Translations under genes and position numbers: made by a program
Shown here: one piece after another, positions 1 to 64,000 of the stretch
Position numbering within the stretch: the first letter of the stretch is position 1
How the letters are laid out: each line of letters starts with the position of its first letter
The notes under the pieces: model-generated
The model's input: the letters and a program-made list of their open reading frames with translations, nothing else
What the model was told of the DNA's origin: nothing
The model's database searches: none
Source: Corythoichthys intestinalis
Lineage: Eukaryota
NCBI RefSeq assembly: GCF_030265065.1
Contig: NC_080406.1
Span: 15,785,094-15,849,093 of the forward strand
Direction of reading: 5' to 3'
DNA length: 64,000 nt

Positions 1-702
1 TCCCAGTCTCAGGTCTTGTGCAGATACCAACAGGTTTTCTTCCAGAATGCTCCTGTATTTGGCTGCATCCATCTTCCCGTCAATTTTAACCATCTTCCCT
101 GTCCCTGCTGAAGAAAAGCAGGCCCAAACCATGATGCTGCCACCACCATGTTTGACAGTGGGGATGGTGTGTTCAGGGTGATGAGCTGTGTTGCTTTTAC
201 GCCAAACATATCGTTTTGCATTGTGGCCAAAAAGTTCAATTTTGGTTTCATCTGACCAGAGCACCTTCTTCCACATGTTTGGTGTGTCTCCCAGGTGGCT
301 TGTGGCAAACTTTAAACGAGACTTTTTATGGATACCTTTCAGAAATGGCTTTCTTCTTGCCACTCTTCCATAAAGGCCAGATTTGTGCAGTGTACGACTG
401 ATTGTTGTCCTATGGACAGACTCTCCCACCTCAGCTGTAGATCTCTGCAGTTCATCCAGAGTGATCGTGGGCCTCTTGGCTGCATCTCTGATCAGTTTTC
501 TCCTTGTTTGAGAAGAAAGTTTGGAAGGACGGCCGGGTCTTGGTAGATTTGCAGTGGTCTGATCCTCCTTCCATTTCAATATGATGGCTTGCACAGTGCT
601 CCTTGAGATGTTTAAAGCTTGGGAAATCTTTTTGTATCCAAATCCGGCTTTAAACTTCTCCACAACAGTATCTCAGACCTGCCTGGTGTGTTCCTTGGTT
701 TT
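1..702 (-). pseudogene. Tc1-A transposase, N-terminal part, inactivated
   Basis: ATG at 702 on the minus strand. Codon 11 is TGA here (GTC TGA GAT) where copy 3 has GTC CGA GAT, so no long ORF is present in the transposase frame. Confidence 0.7.
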
Positions 703-1096
703 CATAATGCTCTCTGCACTTTAAACAGAACCCTGAGACTACCACAGAGCAGGTGCATTTATACGGAGACTTGATTACACACAGGTGGATTCTATTTATC
801 ATCATCGGTCATTTAGGACAACATTGGATCATTCAGAGATCCTCACTGAACTTCTGGAGTGAGTTTGCTGCACTGAAAGTAAAGGGGCCGAATAATATTG
901 CACGCCCCACTTTTCAGTTTTTTATCTGTTAAAAAAGTTTAAATTATCCAATAAATGTTCCACTTCACAATTGTGTCCCACTTGTTGTTGATTCTTGACA
1001 AAAAAAATTAAATTTCATATCTTTATGTTTGAAGCCTGAAATGTGGCGAAAGGTTGCAAGATTCAAGGGGGCCGAATACTTTTGCAAGGCACTGTA
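1..1096 (-). mobile_element. Tc1-like transposon, family A, copy 1 (cut by the window edge)
   Basis: Bases 1-700 match copy 3 at 44196 onward. The terminal repeat GGGGGCCGAATACTTTTGCAAGGCACTG + TA lies at 1063-1096. Confidence 0.85.
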
Positions 1097-5804: not shown

Positions 5805-7436
5805 TACAGTGCCTTGCAAAAGTATTCGGCCCCCTTGAATCTTGCAACCTTTTGCCACATTTCAGGCTTCAAACATAAAGATATGAAATTTAATTTTTTT
5901 GTCAAGAATCAACAACAAGTGGGACACAATCGTGAAGTGGAACAACATTTATTGGATAATTTAAACTTTTTTAACAAATAAAAAACTGAAAAGTGGGGCG
6001 TGCAATATTATTCAGCCCCTTTACTTTCAGTGCAGCAAACTCACTCCAGAAGTTCAGTGAGGATCTCTGAATGATCCAGTGTTGTCCTAAATGACCGATG
6101 ACGATAAATAGAATCCACCATTGTGTAATCAAGTCTCCGTATAAATGCACCTTCTCTGTGATAGTCTCAGGGTTCTGTTTAAAGTGCAGAGAGCATTATG
6201 AAAACCAAGGAACACACCAGGCAGGTCCGAGATACTGTTGTGGAGAAGTTTAAAGCCGGATTTGGATACAAAAAGATTTCCCAAGCTTTAAACATCTCAA
6301 GGAGCACTGTGCAAGCCATCATATTGAAATGGAAGGAGCATCAGACCACTGCAAATCTACCAAGACCCGGCCGTCCTTCCAAACTTTCTTCTCAAACAAG
6401 GAGAAAACTGATCAGAGATGCAGCCAAGAGGCCCATGATCACTCTGGATGAACTGCAGAGATCTACAGCTGAGGTGGGAGAGTGTCCATAGGACAACAAT
6501 CAGTCGTACACTGCACAAATCTGGCCTTTATGGAAGAGTGGCAAGAAGAAAGCCATTTCTCAAAGATATCCATAAAAAGTCTCGTTTAAAGTTTGCCACA
6601 AGCCACCTGGGAGACACACCAAACATGTGGAAGAAGGTGCTCTGGTCAGATGAAACCAAAATTGAACTTTTTGGCCACAATGCAAAACGATATGTTTGGC
6701 GTAAAAGCAACACAGCTCATCACCCTGAACACACCATCCCCACTGTCAAACATGGTGGTGGCAGCATCATGGTTTGGGCCTGCTTTTCTTCAGCAGGGAC
6801 AGGGAAGATGATTAAAATTGACGGGAAGATGGATACAGCCAAATACAGGAACATTCTGGAAGAAAACCTGTTGGTATCTGCACAAGACCTGAGACTGGGA
6901 CGGAGATTTATCTTCCAACAGGACAATGACCCAAAACATAAAGCCAAATCTACAATGGAATGCTTCAAAAATAAACGTATCCAAGTGTTAGAATGGCCAA
7001 CTCAAAGTCCAGACCTGAATCCAATCAAGAATCTGTGGAAAGAGCTGAAGACTGCTGTTCACAAACACTCTCCATCCAACCTCACTGAGCTCGAGCTGTT
7101 TTGCAAGGAAGAATTGGCAAGAATGTCAGTCTCTCGATGTGCAAAACTGATAGAAACATACCCCAAGCGACTTGCAGCTGTAATTGGAGCAAAAGGTGGC
7201 GCTACAAAGTATTAACGCAAGGGGGCCGAATAATATTGCACGCCCCACTTTTCAGTTTTTTATTTGTTAAAAAAGTTTAAATTATCCAATAAATTTTGTT
7301 CCACTTCACGATTGTGTCCCACTTGTTGTTGATTCTTGACAAAAAATTAAATTTTTTTATCTTTATGTTTGAAGCCTGAAATGTGGTGAAAGGTTGCAAG
7401 GTTCAAGGGGGCCGAATACTTTTGCAAGGCACTGTA
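5805..7436 (+). mobile_element. Tc1-like transposon family A, copy 2 (full length, transposase frameshifted)
   Basis: TACAGTGCCTTGCAAAAGTATTCGGCCCCCTTGAA terminal repeats at both ends, TA flanks, 1632 bp. Confidence 0.9.
6198..7215 (+). pseudogene. Tc1-A transposase with a 2-bp deletion
   Basis: ORFs 6198-6491 and 6448-7215 together cover the 339-aa protein of copy 3. At about 6480 this copy reads GAGAGTGTCCATAGG where copy 3 has GAGAGTCTGTCCATAGG. Confidence 0.85.
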
Positions 7437-7539
7437 TACAGTATGTGAATATGAAATATTAAAAATGCATTTATTCCGTACGACAGGGCTAAATTACTGA
7501 ATCATGGTCAAAGCTGCCGACTTCTTAAACCTTCCGAAC

Positions 7540-15667: not shown

Positions 15668-16885
15668 CATCTGTAACGCTTCACAAACTTTTCACACACT
15701 GTTGCTGGTATTTTGGCCCATTCCTCCATGCAGATCTCCTCTAGATCAGTGATGTTATGGGGCTGTCGTTGGGCAACACGGACTTTCAACTCCCTCCACA
15801 GATTTTCAATGGGGTTGAGATCTGGAGACTGGCTAGGCCACTCCAGGACCTTGAAATGCTTCTTACGAAGCCACTCTTTTGTTGCCCCGGCTGTGTGTTT
15901 AGGATCATTGTCATGCTGAAAGACCCAGCCACGTCTCATCTTCAATGCCCTTGCTGATGGAAGGAGATTTTCACTCAAAATCTCTGGATACGTGGCCCCA
16001 ATCATTCTTTCCTTTACACAGATCAGTCGTCCTGGTCCGCATTGTGTTGATAGTAGCCTTTGTTACTGTGGTCCCAGCTCTCTGTAGGTCATTCACTAGG
16101 TCCCCCCTTGTGGTTCTGGGATTTTTGCTCACCGTTCTTGTTATCATTTTGACGCCACAGGGTGAGATCTTGCATGGAGCCCCAGATCGAGGGTGATTAT
16201 CAGTGGTCTTGTCTTTCATTTTCTAATGATTGCTCCCACAGTTGATTTCTTTACACCAGGGGTCCCCAAACTTTTTCCTGTGAGGGCCACATAACTTTTC
16301 CCTTCTCTGATGAGGTGCCGGGGTCAGTTTGTAACAGAAAAAGTGTGACGATTGCAGGAGTGCCTAAATGTAAAACAAATTGTTTTTCAGAAAGCCACAA
16401 TCAAATAACCCTTTCTGGATTCTTCACGGAACACAAGTAAATAAAATAAAAACAATAATATAACATAATATAATAATGATAAATAATAATAACACTATTA
16501 ATTAAATAGATAATAACCTAATAACCCTATCTGAGTTCTTCACAGAAAATGGCCAGGAAATAAATAAAACTATTGAGAAAAAAAAAAAAAAAAATCTAAA
16601 TGCTCTCTGGTATTGTTCAGCGGGCCCAACCAAATGTGGACGCGGGCTGTATCTGGCCCACGGGCCGTAGTTTGGGGACCCCTGTACACCAAGCATTTTA
16701 CCTATTGCAGATTCAATCTTCCCAGCCTGGTGCAAGTCTACAATTTTGTCTTTGGTGTCCTTCGACAGCTCTTTGGCCATAGTGGAGTTTGGAGTGTGAC
16801 TGACTGAGATTGTGGACAGGTGTCTTTTATACCGATAATGAGTTAAAACAGGTGCCATTAAAACAGGTAACAAGCGGAGCCTCAT
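15664..16885 (-). pseudogene. Tc1-B transposase fragments
   Basis: ORFs 15664-16005 (…[10 protein letters not shown]…[16 protein letters not shown]…), 15971-16219 and 16502-16885 ([21 protein letters not shown]…) are split by a MITE. Confidence 0.75.
16257..16684. mobile_element. MITE with a perfect 16-bp TIR CAGGGGTCCCCAAACT
   Basis: The TIR lies at 16257-16272 and as its reverse complement at 16669-16684. The 5-bp duplication TACAC sits at 16252-16256 and 16685-16689. The uninterrupted site TTTACACCAAGC is seen in copy 3 at about 63790. Confidence 0.7.
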
Positions 16886-22934: not shown

Positions 22935-24290
22935 GCTTGTAGGCAAGGCAAGGCAAGGCAAATTTATTTATATAGCACAATTCAACACAAGGCAATTCAA
23001 AGTGCTTTACATCACATGAAGATCATAAAAATCACATTTAAATCAATACAACGTAGAAACCAAGACAAAAGATCGCACTTAATCACAGAATGAAAATAAA
23101 TAAATACAAATAAAACAAAAAAAATAAAGCAAAAACTACTACTCCTAATAATAATTGAAATCGGCAGTGGAGATAAGCACAAGAGGAATAGAAAGCAGGT
23201 AGATTGAAATATATAGACAGTTATGGATATGCAGTGCTAAACAAAAGCGTTTTTAGCCCTGATTTAAAAGAGCTAACAGTTTGAGCATACTTCAGAGGTT
23301 CGAGTAACTTGTTCCAGTGGTGAGGAACATAATAACTAAATGCTGCCTCACCCTGCTTGGTTCTTGTTCTTGGAACATGCAGAAGACCGGTTCCAGACGA
23401 CCTTAGGGGTCTGGGTGTCTCATAGGAATCTAACAAGTCAAGAATGTATTTTGGTCCAAGGCCATTAAGTGTTTTGTAGACGAGCAGTAGTATTTTATAG
23501 TCTATCCTTTCACTCACTGGAAGCCAGTGTAGCGATTTCAAAACCCGTGTAATGTAGTCCAGCTTCCTTGTATTTGTGAGGACTCTGGCTGCAGCATTCT
23601 GTACTAGCTGCAGCTTCCTGACTGATTTTTGTAAAAATACAGTTGCAATAGTCCAATCTGCTGAAAATGAATGCATGCATAAGTTTTTCCATGTCTTGTT
23701 GTGTCAGAAGCCCCTTAATTCTGGTTATATTTTTTAGGTGGTAATAAGCGGATTTAGTGACGGACTTTAGATGGCTATCAAATTTTAGGTCTGAGTCAAT
23801 AATTACGCCCAGTTTTCTGACTTGATTTGTAGCTGTAAGTGACATTGTGCTCAGTTGGCTGTTTATCTTTAACCTTTCCTTTTTTTGGCCCAAAAATGAT
23901 CACCTCTGTCTTCTCCACATTTAACTGGAGAAAATTCTGGCACATCCATTCATTGATTTGACGAATGCATTTACTCAGGGAGACTAAGGGACTATAATCA
24001 TGTGGGGACACAGAAATGTACAGTTGTGTGTCATCTGCATAGGCGTGATAGGAGATGTCATACTGTTCCATTATCTGAGCTAATGGAAGCATATAGATGT
24101 TAAATAAGAGTGGTCCAAGAATTGACCCTTGAGGGACTCCACACGTGAATTTGGTTCGTTCTGACTGATAGTTTCCGATTGACACAAAGAAATCCCTATC
24201 ATGTAAATAGGATTTGAACCACTGAAGAATAGTGTCAGTAAGCCCTACCCACTGTCCTACTAAATCTTTCGTCCTGTTTCCAACTCAATC
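22935..24290 (-). mobile_element. L2-clade LINE, second subfamily, 5'-truncated and frameshifted
   Basis: RT and C-terminal fragments in three frames: [61 protein letters not shown]. The 3' tail (GGCAA)n…AGTGCTTTACAT lies at about 22935-23040. Confidence 0.75.
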
Positions 24291-33293: not shown

Positions 33294-36200
33294 CTAACTA
33301 TAAGCTTTGTCGAATAGGAACGTTTTTAATCTAATCTTAAATGTGCAAACTGTCTCGGCTTCTTTAATACTAGCTGGAAGCTGATTCCATAAAACAGGGG
33401 CTTGGTGGCTAAAGGCTCTAGCTCCGACAGTACTTTTATGAACCCTGGGAACTACCAGTAGACCTGCATTCTGAGATCGGAGTGTTCTGTTGGGGCGGTA
33501 TGGAACCAGAGCATCGGTGAGATAAGATGGCCCCAACCCATTAATGGTCTTAAATGTAAGAAGGAGTATTTTAAATTTAATTCTAAACTCGACTGGAAGC
33601 CAGTGAAGTGCCTGGAGCACAGGGGTGATGTGCTCTCTTCTATTGGTTCCTGTTAAAAGTCTTGCTGCTGCGTTTTGGACTAGCTGAAGACCTTTTAGAG
33701 AGCTTTTAGGACAAGCTGCAAGTAGGGAGTTACAGTAATCCAATCTCGATGTAACGAACGCGTGAATTAATTTTTCTGCATCGCTTTTAGATAAAATGTT
33801 TCTAATTTTGGCGATGTTGCGCAGGTGAAAGAAAGCCGTTCTACAGGTTTGTTTAATGTGTGCTTTAAACGATAAGTCAGGGTCAAATAAAATTCCTAGG
33901 TTTTTAACTGTGGCGCTGGAGGCTACACTTACATTGTCCAGAGTGACTATCTGGGCAGATAAAGAGTCTCTAACACTTTTCGAGCCTATTATAAGGACTT
34001 CTGTCTTTTCAGGGTTAAGTAGAAGATAGTTAGTGCTCATCCAGGTATTTATATCTCGGACGCAGGCGCTTAGTTTTTCTACTTGCCTGACCTGCTCAGG
34101 TTTAATTGATAAATACAGTTGTGTGTCGTCAGCGTAACAATGAAAGTTAATGCTATGTTTTCTGATGATGTTACCTAGAGGAAGCATATACAGCGTAAAC
34201 AAGATGGGCCCGAGGACAGATCCTTGCGGCACACCATAACTAACTCTAGAGTACGATGATGATTGCTGGTTTACATTGACAAACTGGTACCTATTAGATA
34301 AATATGATTTAAACCAGCAGAGGGCTGCTCCTCTAATGCCTATGTCACATTCTAATCTCTGCAATAAGATATTATGGTCGATTGTGTCAAAGGCTGCGCT
34401 CAGGTCCAGCAGAACCAGGATCGAGACTAATCCAACGTCAGCGGCAAGTAACAAGTCATTAGTTACTTTAACTAATGCGGTTTCAGTGCTATGATGAGCT
34501 CGAAAGCCAGACTGGAACTGTTCAAATAAACTATTGTCCTGTAGGTGCTGACAGAGCTGTTTAATTACCACTCTTTCAAGGACTTTGGAGAGAAATGGTA
34601 AGTTAGAAATAGGTCTATAATTGGCCAGAATATCAGGATCAAGAGTAGGTTTTTTCAAGAGCGGTTTAATAACTGCATATTTAAAGGACTGCGGCACGTA
34701 GCCAGTAACTAATGAGGTATTTATTATATTTAAGATAGTGTCAAGGAGGCACGTTGATGGTTTGGAGGACATTATAATTGAAGTTACATCAATTTGGTCT
34801 ACAGTGGTAAAGTTATTTAATATTTTAGAGGGGTTTATAGGAGATTCCGAATTCTTTGTCTGCACTTTATCAGACCTAATAATTGGAAGTGATTCATTTA
34901 TTTTATTTCTAATAGTTGCGATTTTATTGTTAAAAAATTTTAGGAAGTCATCACAGCTAAGGGTGGTTGGGATATAAGGTTCTATTGAGGTGTGACTGTT
35001 TGTCAGCCTTGCTACAGTGCTGAACAGAAACCTAGGATTATTTTTGTTTTCCTCTATTAAGGATGAGTAATATCTGGTTTTAGCCGTGCGCAAGGCCTGC
35101 TTATATGTCACTAAGCTGTGTTTCCAAGCAGAGAGGGTGTGCTCTGTGTTGGAACGGCGCCAAAGTCTTTCTAATTTACGTGTCGATTGTTTAAGAGAGC
35201 GTGTTTCAGCATTATACCAGGGAGATGCTCGTCTCGGCTTGACAAACTTTAATTTGGAGGGAGCGACGACATCTAGGGTGGTACGAAACGTAAACAGAAC
35301 ACGATCAACAAACTCGTCATTAACAGCAAGGCCGGACATCACTCCTTCATAATTAGATGACATGGAGGCAAATATAGGCTGAATTATCTGTTTATACTCT
35401 GAAACAGAGTGATCACCTAATGTCCTTTTCATCTGAGTTCTAATCACTGGTGGTGGATTATCTTGAAGCACAAACCGAAAGGTAATTAGAAAATGATCAG
35501 ACAGTACAGGGTTGTGGGGATGGACACTAAGATCACTAATCTCAGTACCGTAGGTTAAAATCAAGTCCAGGGTGTGCTTGTGACTATGAGTTGGTTTATT
35601 TACATTTTGAATGAAGCCAGTCCCATCTAGTAGGTCATTAAAGGCCTTACCAAGGGAGTCACCTTCATCGTCAACATGTATATTAAAATCCCCTACAATT
35701 ATAATTCTATCCCAGCTTAGCAAAATACTAGATAAAAAGTCAGAGAAATCTAACAAAAACTGTGAGTAGGGACCAGGGGGACGGTAAACCACTATGAACA
35801 GAACTGGTTTTTGGTTCTTCCAGTTAGCGTCTATAATTGATAGTGCTAGACTTTCAAAGGAGTTATAAATGTAATTAGCTTTACTTTTTGGGCTCATACC
35901 TAAACAAGAGTGTGATATTACTGCCACCCCCCCTCCACGGCCCGTGCTTCTAGCTGTGTGAAAATTCACGTGACTTGGGGGTGTGGATTCATTAAGTCTA
36001 ACAAAGTCATCCTGCTGAAGCCAAGTTTCAGTCAGGGCCAAAATATGAATATTGTAATCCCCAATTAAGTCATTAACTAACAGAGATTTGGGCGAGATTG
36101 ACCTGATGTTTAATAATCCGCATCTTATATATTTATTAAGAGCTAATTTATTTTCACTGCTATTAGGGGCTATATGTATTAAATTCTTTGGTCTCGTTCC

Positions 36201-36362
36201 TATAGTACTCGGTTTTCCCCTGTTCACTATACGAGGCACGGACACGGTCTCTATCTTCTGTCCTGAATTTTGGATTTGTGACAGCTCGGAAAGAGGCGAG
36301 TGGTCACTACTAACAGTGTTATGTTTTACACTACAACACTGCGCCCGGGCCCCCACTCTCAA
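33294..36362 (-). CDS. L2 ORF2: apurinic endonuclease plus reverse transcriptase (1022 aa)
   Basis: APE motifs [24 protein letters not shown] motifs [48 protein letters not shown]. The C-terminal block reads [13 protein letters not shown]…LHWLPV. Confidence 0.9.
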
Positions 36363-36365
36363 GTG

Positions 36366-37244
36366 TCACTTTGGGAGACTTAGTTTGGCGGCCAAATTTC
36401 GAGTTAAGAGAGCAGCACCGTCCCAAGTCGGATGAATGCCGTCTCGGCGCATGAGCCCGGGCTTGCCCCAAAACGCGTGCCAGTTATCAACAAAGACTAT
36501 ATCGTTTTCTGGGCACCATCTAGACAACCAGCGGTTAAATGATGAGAATCTAGAGTACATCTCATCATTGACCAAATTAGGCAGAGGACCAGAGAAAACT
36601 ACGGTGTCCGCCATCGACTTAGCAAGTTCACACACCGAGGCTACGTTTAATTTAAGCACCTCAGACTGTCTCCGCCGGGCGTCGTTACCGCCTGCGTGAA
36701 TCACGATACGGCGGAACCTCTTCCTACTCTGCTTTAAGAGTCTGAGGTTTCCTTCGATGTCACCGACTCTGGCCCCTGGGTAGCACCTGACAGACACCGC
36801 CGGGTGCTTCACGTCTCTAACTATGGAGCTTCCAATTACGAGAGTGTCTGGTTCAGCCGGTGTGTCGCTGAGGGGGGCAAACCTATTGCTGACGTGAAGC
36901 TGCTGGTGCACTAAGGTTGTGCGTTTACCACTGCGCTTCCCCCGTACAGTCACAAATCCCTCCTTAATTTCCCCCGGCTGCACGGGGCTCGCTGGGGGGC
37001 TAACTGCGCTAGCAATCCTACTACTGCAAGCACGACCTGCCACTACCTGGCTATAGCTAGGACTAGCTTTCGTCTCTAGAGTGCAGAGCCGTGCTTCTAG
37101 CTCAGAAACCCTGGTCTCCAACCCTGAGACTAAGCTACACTTCCTACAGCTACTACTGTCCTCGACGAAGGAGCCAGGGTGCTCGCTATACATACAGCAC
37201 ACTGAGCAGAAAAGACGGGAGGACGAAGGCAGAGGGCTAGCCAT
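36366..37244 (-). CDS. L2 ORF1: Cys-rich N-terminus plus SGNH-type esterase domain (292 aa)
   Basis: Motifs LVIGSSIVRDV (nucleophile block), IHAGGNDA (GxND block) and RDGIHPTWDG (DxxH block). It ends in a TGA that is in the same frame as ORF2. Confidence 0.85.
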   Translation of the reverse strand: MASPLPSSSRLFCSVCCMYSEHPGSFVEDSSSCRKCSLVSGLETRVSELEARLCTLETKASPSYSQVVAGRACSSRIASAVSPPASPVQPGEIKEGFVTVRGKRSGKRTTLVHQQLHVSNRFAPLSDTPAEPDTLVIGSSIVRDVKHPAVSVRCYPGARVGDIEGNLRLLKQSRKRFRRIVIHAGGNDARRRQSEVLKLNVASVCELAKSMADTVVFSGPLPNLVNDEMYSRFSSFNRWLSRWCPENDIVFVDNWHAFWGKPGLMRRDGIHPTWDGAALLTRNLAAKLSLPK

Positions 37245-37800: not shown

Positions 37801-38698
37801 GAAGAATGTATACATGTATGTATAGAATGAAACTGATTTCCCTCTGTATTAAGCAATTAAAAATTTACTAGCCACCATCATTTGTTTATCCTCTGTGTTT
37901 TTTTTTGTTTTTTTTTCCAAGCACAGGAGTGTGACTGAGAGACATCAGAGAGAGGTGCTAGTCACGAAGTACGTTGACACTTGAGCTGTTTACGAACCTG
38001 TTCTCTTTACGAGGACCCTCGTCTTTACTCTCAAACCTCCATCACATGCTCCGACACAATCAGCTCTTCAATCTCACACATTTGCTGCTCAAGGCTATGT
38101 GGTGATGAAGTGTGTACGCGTGCGTGTGTGCGTGCAAGCGCGCGTGGATGCGTGTGTCTCTAAGAGGCGACTTTGGGAAAGCTTCTTCAATTGGGACCAA
38201 AAAAAGGCCATTTGAGGGAAAAGCTCATTTTAGTTGAGAAGTGGCATTGTAAGTAACTTGGAGCCTGGAGCAGTGACTCTGGCAGAATACTGAATGCTCC
38301 TAAAGTTGCTTTGAAGATCACGAAAGTGGGCCTCGTGCAGTTTATGGTATATATGCTACAGGAGAGGCGGGACTTTCGACAAAAAATGTCATGTATTATT
38401 TACAGAACTGCACCATAGCTAGAGCGTTGTGCCTCTGACATTTTTTTTTTCAATAAATTCACGAATCAGCGAACATTTAACATTTATGCTGAGCCTTTAT
38501 GCCAGACATCTGTCAGGATGCGTGGACGAGGTGGACCCAATCGCAGGGAAAACAAAAGGCAAAGCAGGGTGTGTGGGACCCCAAAATGCTTTAGAATGTT
38601 TTTTTTAAATGAAAGTTGCCATGCCAGAGCTCTAGAATTTTATTAGCACAGTACGGTTTATGTCCAGACAATTGAAAAATACTGTAATTTACCAACAG

Positions 38699-38852
38699 TG
38701 AGTGAGTGAGTGAGTGAGTGAGTGAGTGAGTGAGTGAGTGAGTGAGTGAGTGAGTGAGTGAGTGAGTGAGTGAGTGAGTGAGTGAGTGAGTGAGTGAGTG
38801 AGTGAGTGAGTGAGTGAGTGAGTGAGTGAGTGAGTGAGTGAGTGAGTGAGTG
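38699..38852. repeat. (GAGT)n microsatellite, about 38 units
   Basis: A perfect GTGA/GAGT tetranucleotide run. Confidence 0.95.

Positions 38853-43608: not shown

Positions 43609-43659
<51 letters not shown>
43609..43659. repeat. (TA)n microsatellite, target of the Tc1-A copy 3 insertion
   Basis: (TA)n runs directly into TACAGTG. A matching (TA)n tract lies at 45290-45327 on the other side. Confidence 0.9.
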
Positions 43660-43662
<3 letters not shown>

Positions 43663-45286
43663 TGCCTTGCAAAAGTATTCGGCCCCCTTGAACCTTGCAA
43701 CCTTTCGCCACATTTCAGGCTTCAAACATAAAGATATAAAATTTTAATTTTTTGTCAAGAATCAACAACAAGTGGGACACAATCGTGAAGTGGAACAAAA
43801 TTTATTGGATAATTTAAACTTTTTTAACAAATAAAAAACTGAAAAGTGGGGCGTGCAATATTATTCGGCCCCCTTGCGTTAATACTTTGTAGCGCCACCT
43901 TTTGCTCCAATTACAGCTGCAAGTCGCTTGGGGTATGTTTCTATCAGTTTTGCACATCGAGAGACTGACATTCTTGCCCATTCTTCCTTGCAAAACAGCT
44001 CGAGCTCAGTGAGTTTGGATGGAGAGTGTTTGTGAACAGCAGTCTTCAGCTCTTTCCACAGATTCTCGATTGGATTCAGGTCTGGACTTTGACTTGGCCA
44101 TTCTAACACCTGGATACGTTTATTTTTGAACCATTCCATTGTAGATTTGGCTTTATGTTTTGGATCATTGTCCTGTTGGAAGATAAATCTCCATCCCAGT
44201 CTCAGGTCTTGTGCAGATACCAACAGGTTTTCTTCCAGAATGTTCCTGTATTTGGCTGCATCCATCTTCCCTTCAATTTTAACCATCTTCCCTGTCCCTG
44301 CTGAAGAAAAGCAGGCCCAAACCATGATGCCGCCACCACCATGTTTGACAGTGGGGATGGTGTGTTCAGGGTGATGAGCTGTGTTGCTTTTACGCCAAAC
44401 ATATCGTTTTGCATTGTGGCCAAAAAGTTCAATTTTGGTTTCATCTGACCAGAGCACCTCCTTCCACATGTTTGGTGTGTCTCCCAGGTGGCTTGTGGCA
44501 AACTTTAAACGAGACTTTTTATGGATATCTTTGAGAAATGGCTTTCTTCTTGCCACTCTTCCATAAAGGCCAGATTTGTGCAGTGTACGACTGATTGTTG
44601 TCCTATGGACAGACTCTCCCACCTCTGCTGTAGATCTCTGCAGTTCATCCAGAGTGATCATGGGCCTCTTGGCTGCATCTCTGATCAGTTTTCTCCTTGT
44701 TTGAGAAGAAAGTTTGGAAGGACGGCCGGGTCTTGGTAGATTTGCAGTGGTCTGATGCTCCTTCCATTTCAATATGATGGCTTGCACAGTGCTCCTTGAG
44801 ATGTTTAAAGCTTGGGAAATCTTTTTGTATCCAAATCCGGCTTTAAACTTCTCCACAACAGTATCTCGGACCTGCCTGGTGTGTTCCTTGGTTTTCATAA
44901 TGCTCTCTGCACTTTAAACAGAACCCTGAGACTATCACAGAGCAGGTGCATTTATACGGAGACTTGATTACACACAGTTGGATTCTATTTATCATTATCG
45001 GTCATTTAGGACAACATTGGATCATTCAGAGATCCTCACTGAACTTCTGGAGTGAGTTTGCTGCACTGAAAGTAAAGGGGCCGAATAATATTGCACACCC
45101 CACTTTTCAGTTTTTTATTTGTTAAAAAAGTTTAAATTATCCAATAAATGTTGTTCCACTTCACGATTGTATCCCACTTGTTGTTGATTCTTGACAAAAA
45201 AATTAAATTTTATATCTTCATGTTTGAAGCCTGAAATGTGGCGAAAGGTTGCAAGATTCAAGGGGGCTGAATACTTTTGCAAGGCA

Positions 45287-45291
<5 letters not shown>
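43658..45291 (-). mobile_element. Tc1-like transposon family A, copy 3: structurally intact, candidate autonomous element
   Basis: Both terminal repeats are intact, TA flanks are present, and the transposase ORF is uninterrupted. Confidence 0.9.
43879..44898 (-). CDS. Tc1/mariner DD34E transposase, 339 aa, intact
   Basis: MKTKEHTRQVRDTVVEKFKAGFGYKKISQALNISRSTVQAII… forms the paired-like HTH region. The catalytic triad is in place: [21 protein letters not shown] and [16 protein letters not shown]. The protein ends AAVIGAKGGATKY. There are no internal stops. Confidence 0.9.
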   Translation of the reverse strand: MKTKEHTRQVRDTVVEKFKAGFGYKKISQALNISRSTVQAIILKWKEHQTTANLPRPGRPSKLSSQTRRKLIRDAAKRPMITLDELQRSTAEVGESVHRTTISRTLHKSGLYGRVARRKPFLKDIHKKSRLKFATSHLGDTPNMWKEVLWSDETKIELFGHNAKRYVWRKSNTAHHPEHTIPTVKHGGGGIMVWACFSSAGTGKMVKIEGKMDAAKYRNILEENLLVSAQDLRLGWRFIFQQDNDPKHKAKSTMEWFKNKRIQVLEWPSQSPDLNPIENLWKELKTAVHKHSPSKLTELELFCKEEWARMSVSRCAKLIETYPKRLAAVIGAKGGATKY

Positions 45292-45554: not shown

Positions 45555-48500
45555 TAGTGTTGTATCAGTCGCGAACGATTCGCTCTTTTTGAACGAATTG
45601 TTTGGGTGAACGAGACCGAACTAATCACCATCTGTACTGATTCGTTCTATGAAGTTGGGGCTTGTTTAGCTGCGTGGGAGGGCGTTGAGCAAGCGGCAGC
45701 GTCTTCTGACATCGCACACGACCAATCGGACGCCAGCCTCATCGCGGGCAGGGGTGGGAGCGGAAACAGAATCAGGGCGTCTGTCACTCACTTTCACGTG
45801 TGGCCAATAGGCAGCCAGCGTGTAGGCAGGGGGGCAAGACTGAGTTATGTCACTTCCCGTTCAGTGACTCGGTCCTCCGGTTCCTGACCTAGCTTGCTGC
45901 TAACTTGACTTTCCAGTAATGCAGTGAACGAGTCAAAAAATGAAAGGAATTGACTTTGTCACATATCTGTTAATGTGGAGCCTATCATATGCTGCTCAAA
46001 CAGACAAAAACACCACACAAACCTAGCGAGCATGGTTTAGTGTACTACTTTTCTCAACAGACTTGCGACTACCCATGACGACATGCTATCAAATTTTACA
46101 GTAGTTTAAAACACGGGTAGCTACGAGGCAAGCAAAAGCTGAGCTGCGGTCGCGTGACGGCAGTGAAGGGGGCAGAGAACTGTCACTATATGGAGGCTTC
46201 ATGGCAGCGATATTTACCTCATATGTGCACAGAAAAAAAGAATATTTCGTATGACCACCATAATACTGATTTGCAATGAAACTGTATATACATGTCAATT
46301 TTTTCCGAGTGTTTTTTTTTTCGTGTCAGAGCGTGGCGGGTGTTGGTTGATTTGACAAATTATGTCCATCTGTCCATCATGTGCTACTCAAGCGCCCAAA
46401 AACAACGCACGCGGACACGGGAGACGTCGCAATATGCCTACATTTTTCTTAACAGACTAATGAGAGTAGAAAGGCGACATCGTGAAGAGCAAACAATTAT
46501 TTCTCGTCAGCATTTGGCGATCTGAAATGAGAGGACAACAGGGGAGCTGACCGGGTTATTTTATTTGTTAATACCAGTGCAAAAATACAATACGATCATC
46601 TTAATACTGATTTGCAATTAAACTGTCAAATATCAAAATGTAGTATTGTTTTCATTTCAGAGCAGCACATTTGACAACTAGCTATTTACACTTTAGTTTT
46701 AACAATAGTGACCAAAAATAATAGTGATGAGCATAAAAACAAAAATACAACAGAGCGAGAGGTAAATATGATGTGTTGGTCGTTCCATATTTAGAAATTA
46801 AACTTTCGATTTATTTTTATTTTCGCGACAGCAAGCATGCCACGTTGGCTGGTAGCAGCAGCATTGTATATGTTATCAAGATCATGCTAAAGAAAGTCCG
46901 CGCGCCCCTGACCCCAAACCCCCACTTCCCCCACAAAAGGAAAATGTTTAACTGTGTCCTAAATCGAAATGCAAGCACGAGCCATGACTTTGATCCCAAA
47001 GAAATAGGACAGACGACGCGGAAGTTCTCCCTCGCTTTTGCAGCAGCGGGAGGGAGACGAGTACGGTGGCCGAGAGGTGTCAGGCGAAATGCAAAGTCCA
47101 AACACTTTGCAAATAGAAAAAAGCACGAACCCAAATTGCAAACGCTTTGCAAAAGAAAAAAGCACGAATGCAAACTGCCACAACACGATCCCCAATTCCT
47201 AAAGCGCGATTGCAAATTGGCAAAAGCACGAACCCCAACTGCAACAACACGACAGCAAATGGCTCGTAGCACGAATGCAAATTGTCACAAAGCGATCCCC
47301 AATTCCTAAAGCGCGATTGCAAATTGGCAAAAGCACGAATCCCAAGTGCCACAACACGACAGCAAATAGTTCGTAGCACAACAGCAAACGGCTCACAGCA
47401 CAGCAGCAAAATCACGCAACACAACGGCAAGAGGATGACCCGGAAGTTAAAAAAAAAAAAAGAAAAAAAAAGGACGACACTTTATACACTTTAAATGTGC
47501 TTTGTGACCATCTATACGGACCTCCATGAAGTTGCCCCCACCCCGCAAATTTATATAAAAATGATGTTAATCGTTTGTGCTGCAACGGTTTTGTAGCTCC
47601 CGCGGCAGCGTACCAACTCTCTCAATAACAGAGGAGTGTCATAATAACTAGCACGATCATAACACAAATTCGGGTCCATTTTGCAGTAAATTGGGGGCTT
47701 GAGATACTAATTTCGAGTGCTGACATCCCTCTAAGCCCCCTCATTTACAGCAAAATGGTGCTAGCTAGTTTTTAGGACACCCCTCTGTTATTGAGAGAGT
47801 TGGTACGCTCCATTAGCCACGGGAGCTAAACTGAGGAAAAGCTACGAGGGACGTCACCACTCGAAATTAATATTTCTATAAAAGCATAATACTGTATCAA
47901 CAAAACCGTTGCAGCACAAACGATTGACATCATTTTTATGTAAATTTGCGTCTGATGGGGGAGCAACTTCATAGAAGTCCGTATAGATGGTCACAAAGCA
48001 CATATAAAGTGTATATAGTGTCGTCTTTTTTTTTTTTTTTCCACTTCCGGGTCATCCTTTTGCCGTTGTGTTGCGTGATTTTGCTGCTGTGCTGTGAGCC
48101 GTTTGCGGTTGTGCTACGAGCTATTTTCTGTCGTGTTGTGGCATTTGGGATTCGTGCTTTTGCCAATTTGCAATCGCACTTTAGGAATTGGGGATCGTGT
48201 TGTGACAACTTGCATTCATGCTACGAGCCATTTGCTGTCGTGTTGTGGCAATTGGGGTTCGTGCTTTTGCCAATTTGTCATCGCGCTTTAGGAATTGGGG
48301 ATCGTGTTGTGGCAGTTTGCATTCATGCTTTTTTCTTTTGCAAAGCGTTTGCAATTTGGGTTCGTGCTTTTTTTCTATTTGCAAAGTGTTTGGACTTTGC
48401 ATTTCGCCTGACACCTCTCGGCCACCGTAGACGAGGCTGTGAAAGCAGAATGATATCGCCTGTCACTCATTTACGACAAGCAGCCAATGAGGAGCCTGTG

Positions 48501-48736: not shown

Positions 48737-49563
48737 TATTGGATTGATATCTGGTGACTGTGGAGGCCATTTGAGTACAGTGAACTCATTGTCATGTTCA
48801 AGAAACCAGTCTGAGATTATTCCAGCTTTATGACATGGTGCATTATCCTGCTGAAAGTAGCCATCAGAAGTTGGGTACATTGTGGTCATAAAGGGATGGA
48901 CATGGTCAGCAACAATACTCAGGTAGGCTGTGGCGTTCCAACGATGCTCAATTGGTACCAAGGGGCCCATAGAGTGCCAAGAAAATATTCCCCACACCAT
49001 TACACCGCCACCACCAGCCCGAACCGTTGATACAAGGCAGGTTGTTGACACCAAATTCTGACCCTACCATCCGAATGTCGCAGCAGAAATCAAGACTCAT
49101 CAGACCAGGCAACGTTTTTCCAATCTTCTATTGTCCAATTTCGATGAGCTTGCGCAAATTGTAGCCTCAGTTTCCTGTTCTTAGCTGAAAGGAGTGGCAC
49201 CCGGCGTGGTCTTCTGCTGCTGTTGCCCATCTGCCTCAAAGTTCGACGTACTGTGCATTCAGAGATGCTCTTCTGCCTACCTTGGTTGTAACGGGTGGTT
49301 ATTTGAGTCACTGTTGCCTTTCTATCAGCTCGAACCAGTCTGGCCATTCTCCTCTGACCTCTGGCATCAACAAGGCATTTCCGCCCACAGAACTGCCACT
49401 CACTGGATATTTTTTCTTTTTCGGACCATTCTCTGTAAACCCTAGAGATGATTGTGCGTGAAAATCCCAGTAGATCAGCAGTTTCTGAAATACTCAGACC
49501 AGCCCTTCTGGCACCAACAACTATGCCACGTTCAAAGTCACTCAAATCACCTTTCTTCCCCAT
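48734..49563 (-). pseudogene. Tc1-C transposase, frameshifted
   Basis: The N-terminal ORF reads MGKKGDLSDFERGIVVGARRAGLSISETADLLGFSRTIISRVYREW…WSDES. A second frame reads …VMVWGIFSWH…FQQDNAPCHKA…WPPQSPDINPI. Confidence 0.8.
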
Positions 49564-57342: not shown

Positions 57343-59330
57343 CTACCAGTCAAGATTCCGGAAATGTCTGGCATGAATCGCTGTCTTTAGGTCATGCCAC
57401 AGTATCTCCATGGGGTTCAAGTCTGGACTTTGACTTGGCCACTCCAGAATGTGTATTTTGTTCTTCTGAAACCATTCTGAAGATGATTTATTTCTGTGTT
57501 TTGGATCATTAACTTGTTGCAGCATCCATCCTCTTTTTAGCTTCAACTGTCTGACAGACGACCTAAGGTTTTCCTGCAAAACATCCTTATAAACTTTTGA
57601 GATCATTCTTCCATTAATGATTACAAGTTGTCCATGCCCTGAGGTAGCAAAACAGCCCAAAATCATGATGCTCCCTCCACCATGCTTAACGGTGGGGATG
57701 AGGTGTTGATGTTGGTGAGCTGCTCCATTTTTACTCCACACATGACGTTGTGTGTTACTGCCAAACAATTCAACTTCGGTTTCATCAGTCCACAAAATAT
57801 TTTGCCAAAACTTCTGTGGAGTGTTTAAGTGCCTTTTTGCGAACATTAAACGAGCAACAATGTTTGTTTTAGACAGCAGTGGCTTTCTCTGTGGATTCCT
57901 CCCTTGAACACCATTCTTGGCCATAGTTTTACATACAGTTGATGTAGGGCTGCAGCTATCGAATATTTTAGTAATTGAGTAATCGACTGAAAATTCTATC
58001 GATTAATCGAGTAATCGTACAAAACATTTTTTTTTTTTAGGTAAAGCGCAATTATAAATGTACATGAGAAAAAGACATTTAATCCAGTATTGAACCATTT
58101 TCAATCAATCAATGTCTTTATTTTCGATGTACATTGTTGAAAACAGCCAACAATTGCATCTCAGATGTGACTAGAAAAAAAAATTCACTGCTTTCACTCA
58201 AAAAAACTTCTAGATCTTATGAAAAAAAAAAATTCTTACCTAAAAATGTAATTACGCTTGATAACACACATCACTTGAAAGCTACGTGTTTTTCCCACGT
58301 GTTTCAATTGAATTTCCATTTGTTTCAAGTTATTTTTAAGTTCTAGTTAAGTTTTAAGTTTGTCTAAACTGTAAGTACTGATAGGATTTTGAGTTTTCTC
58401 AGTGTTCATAATCAATGTATAATACCTGCTGCACATTAGGGACCAGTACTACTTGGTGTTTTTATTCAGCAATGACTACTGAGCTAAAACTGACAGTTAG
58501 CGTTAATATGTTTTAATTTTACACCCTTATCACTCTACAGCGCTGTGTTTTTACAGATTAAATAAAGCCTGCATGTAAGACATGTTAGCCACGCATTGAC
58601 AGTGGTCATAATCAATAGAAACCTAGCCCTCCGAAGGGCTAACGTTACGTGAGCGAGTGACAGTAACGCTATATTTATTAGCGCTGAGAAGTGTACTGCT
58701 TAAAGATGGCGGCTGTTTACTAACGCTGCCCAGACGCGGCCAAGTCTGTCATTTCGCATCTAGTTCTAAATGCATGCTATATCTATGAGATGCCTCGGAC
58801 ATTACCTGCTACCACCCTAGCATCATGCGGGCGTAGTTTTTAACAACGTCGGCGTAGTTTGTGGCAGCTGTTGGCTATCGTAAGTTTATTTTTTTTTTTT
58901 TATTGCTTCTTCCTCTACGCACGTGACGTCACCGTATTGTCCTGCATTAAAAGTAGTCCGGGCAAAACGTGATGCATAAAGCTGGAAAAATGAAACAATT
59001 CCTCGAGGTGAATAAAATTACTCGAGTTGCTCGAGTATTTGTTTCAGCTCTAGATGTGTGCACATAAAAATTGGACTGTGACAGTGATTTCTGTAAGTAT
59101 TTAGCAGACACTTTAGGGTTCTTTTGAACTCTCTGAGGATTCTGCGCTGAACTCTTGGCGTCATCTTTGGTGCCAAACTCTCTCCATTTGTAGACAACTT
59201 CTCTGACTGTCGATTGATGGACATCCCGACTTTTAGAGATGGTTTTGTATCCTTTCCCAGCATTATACAAACCAACAATTCTTGATTGCAGGTCTTTCAA
59301 CAGCTCTTTTGACCGAGCCATGATGCACAT
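57343..59330 (-). pseudogene. Tc1-D transposase, split and truncated
   Basis: The N-terminal frame reads MARSKELLKDLQSRIVGLYNAGKGYKTISK. The 57343-57924 frame reads …RKPLLSKTNIVARL…WTDETEVELFG…TVKHGGGSIMILGCF…QQVNDPKH…[13 protein letters not shown]. Confidence 0.75.
57945..59052. mobile_element. Non-autonomous DNA-transposon-like insertion inside the Tc1-D transposase
   Basis: Ends TAGGGCTGCAGCTATCGAATA … GTTTCAGCTCTA. Subterminal motifs TAATCGAGTAATCG and ACTCGAG are present. GATG is duplicated at 57941-57944 and 59053-59056. The insertion splits the transposase between …VHTS and TSTVCKT. Confidence 0.55.
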
Positions 59331-62678: not shown

Positions 62679-64000
62679 TACAGTGGGGCAAATAAGTATT
62701 TAGTCAACCACTAATTGTGCCAGTTCTCCCACTTGAAAATATTACAGAGGCCTGTAATTGTTAACATGGGTAAACCTCAACCACGAGAGACACAACGTGA
62801 GGGGAAAAAAAACAGAAAATCAAATTGTTTGATTTTTAAAGAATTTATTTGCAAATCATGGTGGAAAATAAGTATTTGGTCAATACCAAAAGTTAATCTC
62901 AATACTTTGTTATGTACCCTTTGTTGGCAATAACGGAGGCGAAACGTTTTCTGTAACTCTTCGCAAGCTTTTCACACACTGTTGCTGGTATTTTGGCCCA
63001 TTCCTCAATGCAGATCTCCTCTAGAGCAGTGATGTTTTGGGGCTGTCATTGGGCAACACAGACTTTCAAATCCCTACACAGATTTTCTATGGGGTTAAGA
63101 TCTGGAGACTGGCTAGGCCACTCGAGGACCTTGAAATGCTTCTTACGAAGCCACTCCTTTGTTGCCCTGGCTGTGTGTTTGCGATCATTGTCATGCTGAA
63201 AGACCCAGCCATGTCTCATCTTCAATGCCCTTGCTGATGGAAGGAGATTTTCACTCAAAATCTCTCGATACATGGCCCCATTCACTCTTTGCTTTACACA
63301 GATCTGTCGTCCTGGTCCCTTTGCAGAAAAACAGCCCCAAGGTATGATGTGTCCGCCCCCATGCTTCACAGTGATATGGTGTTCTTCAGATGCAATTCAG
63401 TATTCTTTCTCCTCCAAACACGAGAACCTGTGTTTCTACCATAAAGTTCTATTTTAGTTTCATCTGACCAGTCCTCTTCTGGATCATCCAAATGCTCTCT
63501 AGCAAACCGCAGACGGGCCTGGACGTGTACTTTCTTCAGCAGGGGGACACGTCTGGCAGTGGAGGATTTGATTCCCTGGCGGCGCATTGTGTTAATGATT
63601 GTAGCCTTTGTTATTGTGGTCCCAGCTCTCTGTAGGTCATTCACTAGGTCCCCCCGTGTGGTTCTGGGATTTTTGCTCACCGTTCTTGTTATCATTTTGA
63701 CGCCACGAAGTGAGGTTTTGTATGGAGCCCCAGATCGAGGGAGAATATCAGTGGTCTTTTATGTCTTCCATTTTCTAATAATCACAGTTGATTTCTTTAC
63801 ACCAAGCGTTTTACCTATTGCAGATTCAGTCTTCCCAGCCTGGTGCAGGTTTTTCGGTCTTATACTAGAAATATTTTTGGTCTTTGGTTTTTTTGGTCTT
63901 TTTGGTCTTGGCCATAGTGGAGGTTGGAGTGTGACTGACTGAGATTGTGGACAGGTGTCTTTTATACCGATAATGAGTTAAAACAGGTGCCATTAATACA
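62679..64000 (-). mobile_element. Tc1-like family B, copy 3, runs past the window end
   Basis: IR TACAGTGGGGCAAATAAGTATTTAGTCAACCAC at 62679. It is followed by the 3'UTR and then minus-strand transposase sequence through 64000. Confidence 0.8.
63046..63695 (-). pseudogene. Tc1-B transposase fragments
   Basis: ORFs 63366-63695 (…[19 protein letters not shown]…[11 protein letters not shown]) and 63046-63369 ([13 protein letters not shown]…[10 protein letters not shown]…[15 protein letters not shown]) lie in different frames. Confidence 0.75.

What the first reader, a model, noticed from the sequence alone, without database searches (positions are those of the whole stretch)
43658..45291. Apparently intact, recently active Tc1-like transposon with two inactivated sister copies in the same window
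Copy 3 has both terminal repeats, TA flanks and an uninterrupted 339-aa transposase. The HTH region and the DDE triad (WSDETK / DNDPKH / [11 protein letters not shown]) are all present. Copies 1 (1-1096) and 2 (5805-7436) differ from it at only a few positions. Each carries one lesion: CGA to TGA at codon 11 in copy 1, and a 2-bp deletion near 6480 in copy 2. Such low divergence implies very recent transposition. Naturally intact vertebrate Tc1 elements are uncommon, so this is a candidate live autonomous element, and its IR/transposase pair could be of practical interest.
Basis: partly seen in the sequence, partly recalled or inferred. Interest (0 to 1): 0.6.

Follow-up and report, generated by a model that had tools for sequence, protein, structure and literature searches.

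The report
Open-frame Passport-like Tc1 transposon copy
This is a full-length fish "jumping gene" of a well-known family (Tc1, Passport-like) whose reading frame is still open, but it has already drifted from its family consensus at conserved positions, so it is an ordinary young relic rather than a clear live element.

Summary
The element is real. It has 221-223-nt inverted repeats, each with an outer and an inner 23-nt direct repeat (IR/DR layout). A 339-aa transposase lies on the minus strand, with D152/D243/E278 at DD34E spacing. It is a Passport-like Tc1. Its terminus matches Passport's published end at 22 of 23 bases, and it is 79% identical to a plaice Passport copy and 90-92% to salmonid and gar copies.

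The "live element" reading is weak. The copies differ by about 2%, not a few positions. Copy 2 also carries E278K at the catalytic glutamate. Private changes in the three ORFs are 16 nonsynonymous to 4 synonymous (dN/dS about 1.1), which is neutral decay. An ORF this diverged stays open about 37% of the time by chance.

The ancestor reconstructed from the three copies matches, at 100% over 1264 bp, contigs assembled from public runs (20 or more samples). Copy 3 differs from it by five residues. Four (K147E, S190G, R236W, N295K) sit at near-invariant family positions. It also has a G-to-A change in the core of one outer repeat. Intact native Tc1 elements are now known in hundreds of fish genomes. 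This is a new member of a known kind, of low interest.

The parts
43658..43659 (.). TA target-site duplication, left flank of copy 3. It is the last unit of a (TA)25 microsatellite at 43610-43659.
43660..45289 (-). Copy 3 proper: a 1630-bp Passport-like Tc1 (DD34E, IR/DR) element, with the transposase sense on the minus strand.
43660..43880 (-). 3' inverted repeat (relative to the transposase). Outer DR at 43668-43690, inner DR at 43854-43876. The last base pairs overlap the stop codon.
43801..43806 (-). AATAAA polyadenylation-type hexamer downstream of the stop codon, inside the 3' IR. Its function is inferred.
43879..44898 (-). 339-aa transposase ORF including the stop. It contains the PAI/RED HTH domains, a GRPR-like PGRP motif at residues 57-60, an NLS-like RRKP...KKSR stretch, the glycine-rich strip, and the DDE domain.
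44443..44445 (-). Catalytic D152 (in WSDETK).
44170..44172 (-). Catalytic D243 (in QQDNDPKH).
44065..44067 (-). Catalytic E278 (in NPIENLW), 34 residues after D243.
44458..44460 (-). Private substitution K147E in copy 3. The position is K in 99 of 107 homologs and E in none.
44329..44331 (-). Private substitution S190G in the glycine-rich strip. The position is S in 95 of 107 homologs and G in 1.
44272..44274 (-). Private substitution D209E. Both residues are common in the family, so it is probably harmless.
44191..44193 (-). Private substitution R236W, a CGG to TGG CpG transition seven residues before catalytic D243. The position is R in 100 of 107 homologs and in SB100X, and W in none.
44014..44016 (-). 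Private substitution N295K. The position is N in 103 of 107 homologs and in SB100X, and K in none.
45069..45289 (-). 5' inverted repeat. Inner DR at about 45074-45096, outer DR at 45259-45281. Copy 3 has a private G-to-A change at 45268 in the ATTCGGCCCC core of the outer DR. This base is G in every outer DR of copies 1 and 2 and of seven related loci.
45290..45291 (.). TA target-site duplication, right flank. It runs on into a (TA)n tract to about 45325.
5805..7436 (+). Copy 2: element 5807-7434 plus clean TA duplications at 5805-5806 and 7435-7436. It has a 2-bp deletion at about 6482/6483 (codon 96), E278K at 7027-7029, W256C and W307L. In total it has 18 private substitutions and 1 indel.
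1..1096 (-). Copy 1: the 5' 1094 bp of an element, cut by the window edge, plus TA at 1095-1096. TGA at codon 11 (673-675). It has 9 private substitutions and 2 indels.

Best explanation
Copy 3 is a full-length member of a Passport-like, IR/DR-type Tc1 (DD34E) DNA transposon family. The family amplified in this unidentified teleost lineage roughly a few million years ago.

By analogy with Passport and Sleeping Beauty, such elements move by cut and paste. The transposase's paired-like HTH domain binds the outer and inner direct repeats in each roughly 220-bp inverted repeat. The DDE domain then excises the element and inserts it at a TA, which is duplicated. This mechanism is inferred by homology and was not shown here.

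The three window copies are independent insertions from a master identical to the family consensus. Since insertion, each has picked up about 1% of neutral mutations. Copies 1 and 2 happened to be hit by a stop and a frameshift. Copy 3 happened not to be, but it carries five amino-acid replacements and one change in a binding-site core.

Copy 3 is therefore best read as a young, decaying copy with a frame left open by chance. Any autonomous activity left in this genome more likely sits in copies that still match the consensus.
For: **Structure**
- The core is 1630 bp, with 221-223-nt IRs at 95% complementarity. Each IR has an outer and an inner 23-nt DR, 186 bp apart.
- TA duplications flank the copies.
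- Pfam finds HTH_SB, HTH_Tnp_Tc3_2 and DDE_3.
- The SB100X catalytic domain 5cr4 matches at E = 4.8e-87 over residues 112-339.
- D152, D243 and E278 are spaced 90 and 34 residues apart.

**Family**
- The terminus TACAGTGCCTTGCAAAAGTATTC differs at one base from the Passport primer TACAGTGCCTTGCATAAGTATTC.
- Identity is 79% to a plaice copy whose N-terminus matches the Passport CDS primer, and 57% to SB100X.
- Identity is 90-92% to Oncorhynchus and Lepisosteus copies.

**Independent insertions**
- The flanks of the three copies are unrelated.

**Star-like neutral decay**
- Private substitutions number 13, 18 and 9 in copies 3, 2 and 1, with 0, 1 and 2 indels.
- In the ORFs the private changes are 16 nonsynonymous to 4 synonymous, dN/dS about 1.14. 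This fits neutrality (p = 1.0) and rejects omega = 0.1 (p = 7e-7).
- Simulated P(ORF still open) is 0.37 at 0.8% divergence.

**Consensus**
- The reconstructed ancestral protein is present exactly in the public collection as P0269.
- Its Logan contigs L017-L020, seen in 20 or more samples, are 100% identical to the reconstructed ancestor over 1264 bp. Copy 3 has 9 mismatches to them.

**Copy 3's departures**
- Its private residues at 147, 190, 236 and 295 occur 0, 1, 0 and 0 times among 107 homologs.
- S190G lies in the Tc1-specific glycine-rich strip described for SB (PMC4820933).
- The outer-DR core change at 45268 hits a base that is otherwise invariant in outer DRs.
Against: - No catalytic-triad residue and no DNA-binding-domain residue is changed in copy 3. 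No stop or frameshift is present.
- The effect of K147E, S190G, R236W and N295K is inferred from conservation only and was not measured. SB has N at the position of K147.
- An A at the DR-core position occurs in the inner DRs of related lineages, so the transposase may tolerate it.
- Short-read contigs of a multi-copy family can be a majority path through the assembly graph. They do not prove that any single copy equals the consensus.
- The age estimate borrows a zebrafish substitution rate. The host is unidentified.
Confidence: 0.8

Rival explanations
1. Copy 3 is itself a live autonomous element: its 339-aa protein is an active transposase and its own ends are competent substrates.
For: The frame is open. 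All domains and the DD34E triad are intact, both IR/DR ends and the TA flanks are present, and an AATAAA lies downstream. The native relatives Passport and ZB are active without reconstruction (PMC2651795, PMC7913693).
Against: Copy 3 has five private replacements, four at near-invariant positions, and a private change in the outer-DR core. The pattern of private changes is neutral, and an open frame is expected by chance about 37% of the time. Copy 3's exact protein is absent from the 15-billion-protein collection, while the consensus protein is present.
Confidence: 0.2
2. The family, rather than this copy, is still active in the host. Consensus-identical copies elsewhere supply transposase, and copy 3 is at most a passenger that can be moved in trans.
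For: The consensus ORF is recovered exactly from 20 or more independently sequenced samples. The three copies show a star-like relationship to a single master. Three copies lie within 45 kb, which fits either a high copy number or local hopping.
Against: All three sampled copies are about 1% diverged and none is identical to the consensus. This points to a past burst rather than ongoing activity. The consensus contigs may be assembly majority paths. No polymorphism or expression data could be obtained.
Confidence: 0.35
3. The ORF is a domesticated, host-co-opted transposase gene kept open by selection.
For: The only support is that the frame is open.
Against: Both IR/DR ends and the TA duplications are retained. 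Multiple near-identical copies sit at unrelated sites. Private changes show dN/dS of about 1.1.
Confidence: 0.01
4. The three copies come from a segmental duplication or an assembly artefact rather than from transposition.
For: None beyond their proximity.
Against: The flanks of the three copies share no similarity. Each copy ends exactly at CAGTG...CACTG next to a TA.
Confidence: 0.01

Closest known systems
Passport (PPTN), the native active Tc1 element of plaice, Pleuronectes platessa (Leaver 2001; Clark et al. 2009, PMC2651795)
   Same: - Both are IR/DR-type Tc1 elements of almost the same length (1626 bp versus 1630 bp).
- The terminal sequence is identical at 22 of the 23 bases covered by the published primer.
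- The N-terminus is MKTKE... and the C-terminus is ...TKY.
- Transposase identity to a plaice genomic copy is 79%.
- Both show a patchy host range of fishes and frogs.
   Different: - The transposase differs by 21%.
- The host is an unidentified teleost.
- Activity was shown experimentally for Passport and not for this element.
- The nearest relatives of this element are the salmonid and gar versions (90-92%), not the flatfish one.
Salmonid and gar Passport-like elements (the SSTN/Barb or Eagle/Glan subfamilies of PMC2651795; UniRef entries from Oncorhynchus mykiss, O. kisutch and Lepisosteus oculatus)
   Same: - Transposase identity is 90-92% at the same 339-aa length.
- Unnamed contigs of this group are 94-95% identical in nucleotides over the whole element, including the IRs.
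- The DR layout is the same.
   Different: - This element has lineage-specific residues such as H48, V226 (LLVSAQ) and G331.
- Its outer DR reads TGCAAAAG where the relatives have TGCGAAAG.
- Which named subfamily it belongs to could not be resolved, because no reference sequences carrying those names were available.
ZB (Tc1-8B_DR), the native highly active zebrafish Tc1 (PMC7913693), and ZB-like elements (PMC9777934)
   Same: - Both belong to the DD34E family, and ZB is reported to share a clade with Passport.
- Both encode a transposase of about 340 aa flanked by TIRs of about 200 bp.
- ZB-type elements prefer to insert into AT repeats. Copy 3 sits inside a (TA)n tract.
   Different: - ZB copies are more than 99% identical to each other, have identical TIRs, and are under 1 Myr old.
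- The copies here are about 98% identical, and copy 3's TIRs are about 95% complementary.
Sleeping Beauty (SB100X; PDB 5cr4, 2m8e)
   Same: - The domain order is the same, with identical D-90-D-34-E spacing.
- Both have the glycine-rich strip and the IR/DR ends with four binding sites.
- Catalytic-domain identity is 57%.
   Different: - SB is a reconstructed consensus from a different Tc1 clade.
- Its DNA-binding domain and IRs are unrelated in sequence to this element's. The PAI subdomain matches only at E of about 3e-5.

Membership tests
Tc1/mariner superfamily, DD34E (Tc1) family | A DDE catalytic triad with 34 residues between the second D and the E | tested here: met
   D152, D243 and E278 are spaced 90 and 34 residues apart. 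Pfam DDE_3 matches, and SB100X 5cr4 matches at E = 4.8e-87.
Tc1/mariner superfamily, DD34E (Tc1) family | An N-terminal bipartite paired-like HTH DNA-binding domain with a GRPR-like motif | tested here: met
   HTH_SB covers residues 1-51 and HTH_Tnp_Tc3_2 covers 68-138. PGRP lies at residues 57-60.
Tc1/mariner superfamily, DD34E (Tc1) family | Terminal inverted repeats and a TA target-site duplication | tested here: met
   The IRs are 221-223 nt. TA sits on both sides of copies 2 and 3, and at the one visible end of copy 1.
Tc1/mariner superfamily, DD34E (Tc1) family | Cut-and-paste transposition catalysed by the encoded protein | not testable with these tools
   This needs an excision and integration assay.
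IR/DR subgroup of Tc1-like elements (Izsvak et al.; SB, Passport) | Long IRs of about 200-250 bp, each carrying two copies of a 20-30-bp direct repeat at its outer and inner ends | tested here: met
   The outer repeat TGCAAAAGTATTCGGCCCCCTTG and the inner repeat TGCAATATTATTCGGCCCCCTTG lie 186 bp apart, mirrored in the other IR.
Passport-like clade (Passport/PPTN, SSTN, Barb, RTTN, Eagle, Glan) | Termini and DRs of the Passport type | tested here: met
   22 of 23 bases are identical to the published Passport end primers.
Passport-like clade (Passport/PPTN, SSTN, Barb, RTTN, Eagle, Glan) | A transposase closer to Passport-group proteins than to other Tc1 clades | tested here: met
   Identity is 79% to the plaice copy P0024, 77-92% to Xenopus, tilapia, salmonid and gar copies, and 57% to SB. 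No formal phylogeny was built.
Passport-like clade: named subfamily (SSTN/Barb versus Eagle/Glan) | The diagnostic DBD residues and ITR positions shown in Fig. 5 of PMC2651795 | not tested
   Figures and named reference sequences are not held, so the subfamily is unresolved.
Currently active ('live') autonomous element | Identity or near-identity to the family consensus, with identical IRs | tested here: not met
   Copy 3 has 13 private substitutions (0.8%), 5 amino-acid changes and about 95% IR complementarity.
Currently active ('live') autonomous element | Insertion polymorphism, transcripts, and activity in an assay | not testable with these tools
   No host genome, population data or RNA data are reachable. 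Copy 3's exact protein is not on record.

The most novel reading that the evidence does not exclude
The family, though not necessarily copy 3, is still transposing in this teleost. Its consensus transposase is P0269, recovered exactly from 20 or more public sequencing runs and equal to the ancestor of the three window copies. On this reading P0269 is a further naturally active Passport-like enzyme with its own IR/DR pair. The family would have reached this host by horizontal transfer from, or shared with, salmonid and gar lineages, given 91-92% amino-acid and 94-95% nucleotide identity.
Probability: 0.3. Interest if true: 0.35.

Novelty: new member of a known kind. Interest (0 to 1): 0.15.

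Why it matters
The significance is modest. Native, ORF-intact Tc1 elements of this clade are already known and used (Passport, ZB/BZ), and intact copies have been catalogued in hundreds of fish genomes. One more copy does not change the picture.

Two practical points come out of the work:
1. Anyone wanting a new Passport-like tool from this lineage should test the consensus (P0269, with consensus IRs) rather than copy 3.
2. An open reading frame in a copy about 1% diverged is weak evidence of activity, because roughly one copy in three keeps it by chance.

Tried and rejected
- **Literature search for the terminal sequence.** Full-text search returned no papers. The family was identified instead through primer sequences in the Passport paper.
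- **Exact look-ups.** Copy 3's protein and the neighbouring LINE ORF1 and ORF2 were looked up to find the host genome. None is on record.
- **Host identification via LINE ORF2.** The best named hits are percomorph teleosts at only 60-72% identity. The host stays 'unidentified teleost'.
- **Run accessions.** A paper search for ERR19879.., ERR19880.. and ERR19881.. found nothing.
- **Collection scans.** Exact scans for the 28-nt terminus in viral contigs (a possible transfer vector) and in metagenome contigs gave no matches. A protein-guided metagenome scan gave only 94-95% relatives of unknown origin.
- **RNA genes.** Rfam and tRNA scans of the window found nothing.
- **Rejected readings.** Segmental duplication or assembly artefact is rejected because the flanks are unrelated. 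A domesticated gene is rejected because the IRs are retained, there are multiple copies, and dN/dS is about 1.
- **One window copy as parent of another.** This is not supported. No two copies share a derived change, and the majority-rule ancestor has zero mismatches to the independent consensus contigs.
- **Not attempted.** Structure prediction would not have shown the effect of the four substitutions.
Full report
**1. What is in the sequence**

The region holds a complete Tc1-like DNA transposon. The element proper runs from CAGTGCC... at 43660 to ...GGCACTG at 45289, which is 1630 bp.

The terminal inverted repeats are 221-223 nt long and about 95% complementary. Each one carries an outer and an inner copy of a 23-nt direct repeat, 186 bp apart: TGCAAAAGTATTCGGCCCCCTTG and TGCAATATTATTCGGCCCCCTTG. 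This is the IR/DR layout with four putative transposase-binding sites, as in Sleeping Beauty and Passport.

A single 339-aa ORF lies on the minus strand at 43879-44898.
- Pfam finds HTH_SB (residues 1-51), HTH_Tnp_Tc3_2 (68-138) and DDE_3 (148-299).
- Residues 112-339 align end to end with the crystallised SB100X catalytic domain, 5cr4, at E = 4.8e-87 and 57% identity.
- The catalytic residues are D152, D243 and E278, spaced 90 and 34 residues apart. That is the DD34E signature with the same spacing as SB.
- A GRPR-like PGRP motif, an NLS-like basic stretch, the glycine-rich strip, and an AATAAA in the 3' IR are also present.

Copy 3 sits inside a (TA)n microsatellite, with (TA)25 on the left and about (TA)18 on the right. 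This fits the preference for AT repeats reported for related elements (PMC9777934).

**2. The other two copies**

Copy 2 (5805-7436 including its TAs) lies in the opposite orientation. It has clean TA duplications in otherwise non-repetitive flanks. Copy 1 (1-1096) is cut by the window edge.

- CGA to TGA at codon 11 of copy 1, at window 673-675.
- A 2-bp deletion in codon 96 of copy 2, at about 6482/6483.

- The copies do not differ at 'only a few positions'. Copy 2 differs from copy 3 by 31 mismatches plus the deletion. Copy 1 differs by 20 mismatches plus two gaps over 1096 bp. Both are about 2%.
- They do not carry one lesion each. Copy 2 also has the catalytic glutamate replaced (E278K, at 7027-7029), along with W256C and W307L. 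Copy 1 has four further missense changes.

The flanks of the three copies are unrelated, so they are separate insertions and not a segmental duplication.

**3. Which family it belongs to**

The Passport paper (PMC2651795) gives end primers that read ...TACAGTGCCTTGCATAAGTATTC. Copy 3 reads TACAGTGCCTTGCAAAAGTATTC, which is 22 of 23 bases identical.

Passport's CDS primers encode MKTKELT... and ...GSTKY. Copy 3 has MKTKEHT... and ...GATKY. A plaice genomic protein with the Passport N-terminus (P0024) is 79% identical to copy 3's protein.

The closest proteins in the 5.8-billion-cluster database are 90-92% identical.
- One is a cluster of 2560 members. Its named members are Oncorhynchus mykiss and O. 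kisutch, and many are 339 aa.
- The other is a cluster from the spotted gar, Lepisosteus oculatus.

Further relatives come from piranha (81%), tilapia (80%), a poison frog (85%) and Xenopus tropicalis (77%).

That patchy host range across fishes and frogs is what Leaver and Clark et al. described for Passport-like elements and attributed to horizontal transfer. ZB, the native active zebrafish element, is reported to share a clade with Passport.

The element therefore passes every sequence-based membership test I could run for Tc1/DD34E, for the IR/DR subgroup, and for the Passport-like clade. The named subfamily (SSTN/Barb versus Eagle/Glan) could not be resolved.

**4. Is copy 3 'recently active' and 'live'?**

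I polarised every difference among the three copies. Majority rule was used where all three are present. Two related contigs (L001 and L002, 94% identical) served as outgroups elsewhere.

| Copy | Private substitutions | Indels | Divergence |
|---|---|---|---|
| 3 | 13 | 0 | 0.80% |
| 2 | 18 | 1 | 1.1% |
| 1 (over 1096 bp) | 9 | 2 | 0.82% |

No two copies share a derived change, so the pattern is star-like.

Within the ORFs, the private changes are 16 nonsynonymous to 4 synonymous. That gives dN/dS of about 1.14. It is indistinguishable from neutrality and incompatible with omega = 0.1 (p = 7e-7) or omega = 0.3 (p = 0.008). All three copies have been drifting freely since insertion.

I simulated neutral decay of the ancestral ORF using the observed indel-to-substitution ratio. 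The frame remains open in 37% of trials at 0.8% divergence and in 28% at 1.0%. One open frame among three copies is therefore what chance predicts. It is not evidence of selection or activity.

At the 4.13e-9 per site per year rate used for ZB, 0.8-1.1% from the master corresponds to roughly 2-3 Myr. This is an inference, because the host's rate is unknown. ZB, by contrast, has 20 copies more than 99% identical to each other, with identical TIRs, all under 1 Myr old.

**5. An independent consensus**

The ancestral protein reconstructed from the three copies was looked up by exact sequence and is in the public collection as P0269. Copy 3's own protein is not.

The four Logan contigs that encode P0269 are L017-L020. 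They come from runs ERR1987919, ERR1987964, ERR1988163 and ERR1988164, and the tool reports the contig in 20 or more samples. These contigs are 100% identical to my reconstructed ancestral DNA over 1264, 1262, 1178 and 1144 bp. Copy 3 has 9, 9, 8 and 7 mismatches to them.

This result does three things:
- It validates the reconstruction.
- It shows that the family consensus ORF is intact and common in sequenced individuals of the host or a close relative.

One caveat applies. A short-read contig of a multi-copy family may be a majority path through the assembly graph rather than one physical copy.

**6. How copy 3 departs from that consensus**

There are five amino-acid replacements: K147E, S190G, D209E, R236W and N295K.

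Conservation across 107 full-length homologs at 59-92% identity:

| Position | Consensus residue (count of 107) | Copy 3's residue seen in homologs |
|---|---|---|
| 147 | K (99) | 0 |
| 190 | S (95) | 1 |
| 236 | R (100) | 0 |
| 295 | N (103) | 0 |

For comparison, the catalytic D152 and E278 are kept in 102 and 99 of the 107. Position 209 varies freely between D and E.

- S190, R236 and N295 are also conserved in SB100X.
- R236W is a CpG transition seven residues before catalytic D243.

In the DNA, copy 3 has a private G-to-A change at 45268 in the ATTCGGCCCC core of the 5' outer direct repeat. That base is G in every outer repeat of copies 1 and 2 and of seven related loci. An A does occur in some inner repeats of relatives, so it may be tolerated.

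None of these changes touches the catalytic triad or the DNA-binding domain. Their effect is inferred from conservation only. I put the chance that copy 3 is itself an active autonomous element at about 0.2.

**7. Novelty**

The premise that intact native vertebrate Tc1 elements are uncommon is out of date.
- Passport (2009) and ZB (2021) are native and active.
- Jia et al. (PMC9777934) found intact ZB copies in 105 genomes and intact ZB-like copies in 183. Some species have hundreds to thousands of them.
- UniRef alone holds many 339-aa versions of this very family from trout, coho salmon and gar.

Copy 3 is a new member of a known kind. The most novel reading still open is that the family remains active through consensus-identical copies and arrived by horizontal transfer. 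I give that a probability of about 0.3, and the interest would be modest even if true.

**8. Verdict**

The element is structurally intact. It is neither especially young nor close to its consensus, and its open frame is explained by chance. Interest is 0.15.

Noticed in passing
window 33294-37244 (minus strand): An apparently intact LINE. ORF1 is 292 aa with a GDSL-esterase domain (36366-37244). It is followed directly by a 1022-aa ORF2 with endonuclease and reverse-transcriptase domains (33294-36362). The best named relatives are percomorph fishes at 60-72% identity, and the best unnamed hit is at 81%. It may be a better 'live element' candidate than the Tc1 copy.
   Followed up: partly
window 9252-10372, 15664-16885, 49090-49563, 57343-59330, 62990-63942: Fragments of at least four other, older Tc1-like families with HTH_SB and DDE_3 domains, about 65% nucleotide identity to copy 3, and broken ORFs. 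The window is a transposon-rich region. A second, degraded LINE reverse transcriptase lies at 23221-24185.
   Followed up: partly
L017-L020 versus window copies 1-3: The majority-rule ancestor of the three window copies has zero mismatches to independent public contigs. So no two window copies share a derived mutation. Three copies within 45 kb therefore came separately from a consensus-identical source. That fits either a high copy number or early local hopping, not one diverged copy seeding another.
   Followed up: partly
proteins P0001-P0008, P0136-P0140; loci L001-L007, L013: The same family is 90-92% identical in protein between this teleost, Oncorhynchus species and the spotted gar. Unnamed contigs are 94-95% identical in DNA across coding and non-coding parts. 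This is far too similar for vertical descent. It is the horizontal-transfer pattern already proposed for Passport-like elements.
   Followed up: partly
window 5779-5799: A short telomere-like run, (G)GGTTAG repeats reading ggttaggggttagggttaggg, lies a few bases from the left end of copy 2.
   Followed up: no
window 5602-5677 and 7449-7524: A 76-bp direct repeat at 88% identity lies on either side of copy 2. Copy 2 may have landed within or beside another repeated sequence.
   Followed up: no
window 47062-47539 and 47959-48429: A large inverted repeat with arms of about 480 nt at 91-100% complementarity, separated by about 420 nt. Each arm contains about two copies of a 107-bp tandem unit. Its origin is unknown; it could be the long TIRs of another element or a palindromic duplication.
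   Followed up: partly
window 38697-38852: A perfect (AGTG)39 microsatellite with 100% matches.
   Followed up: no
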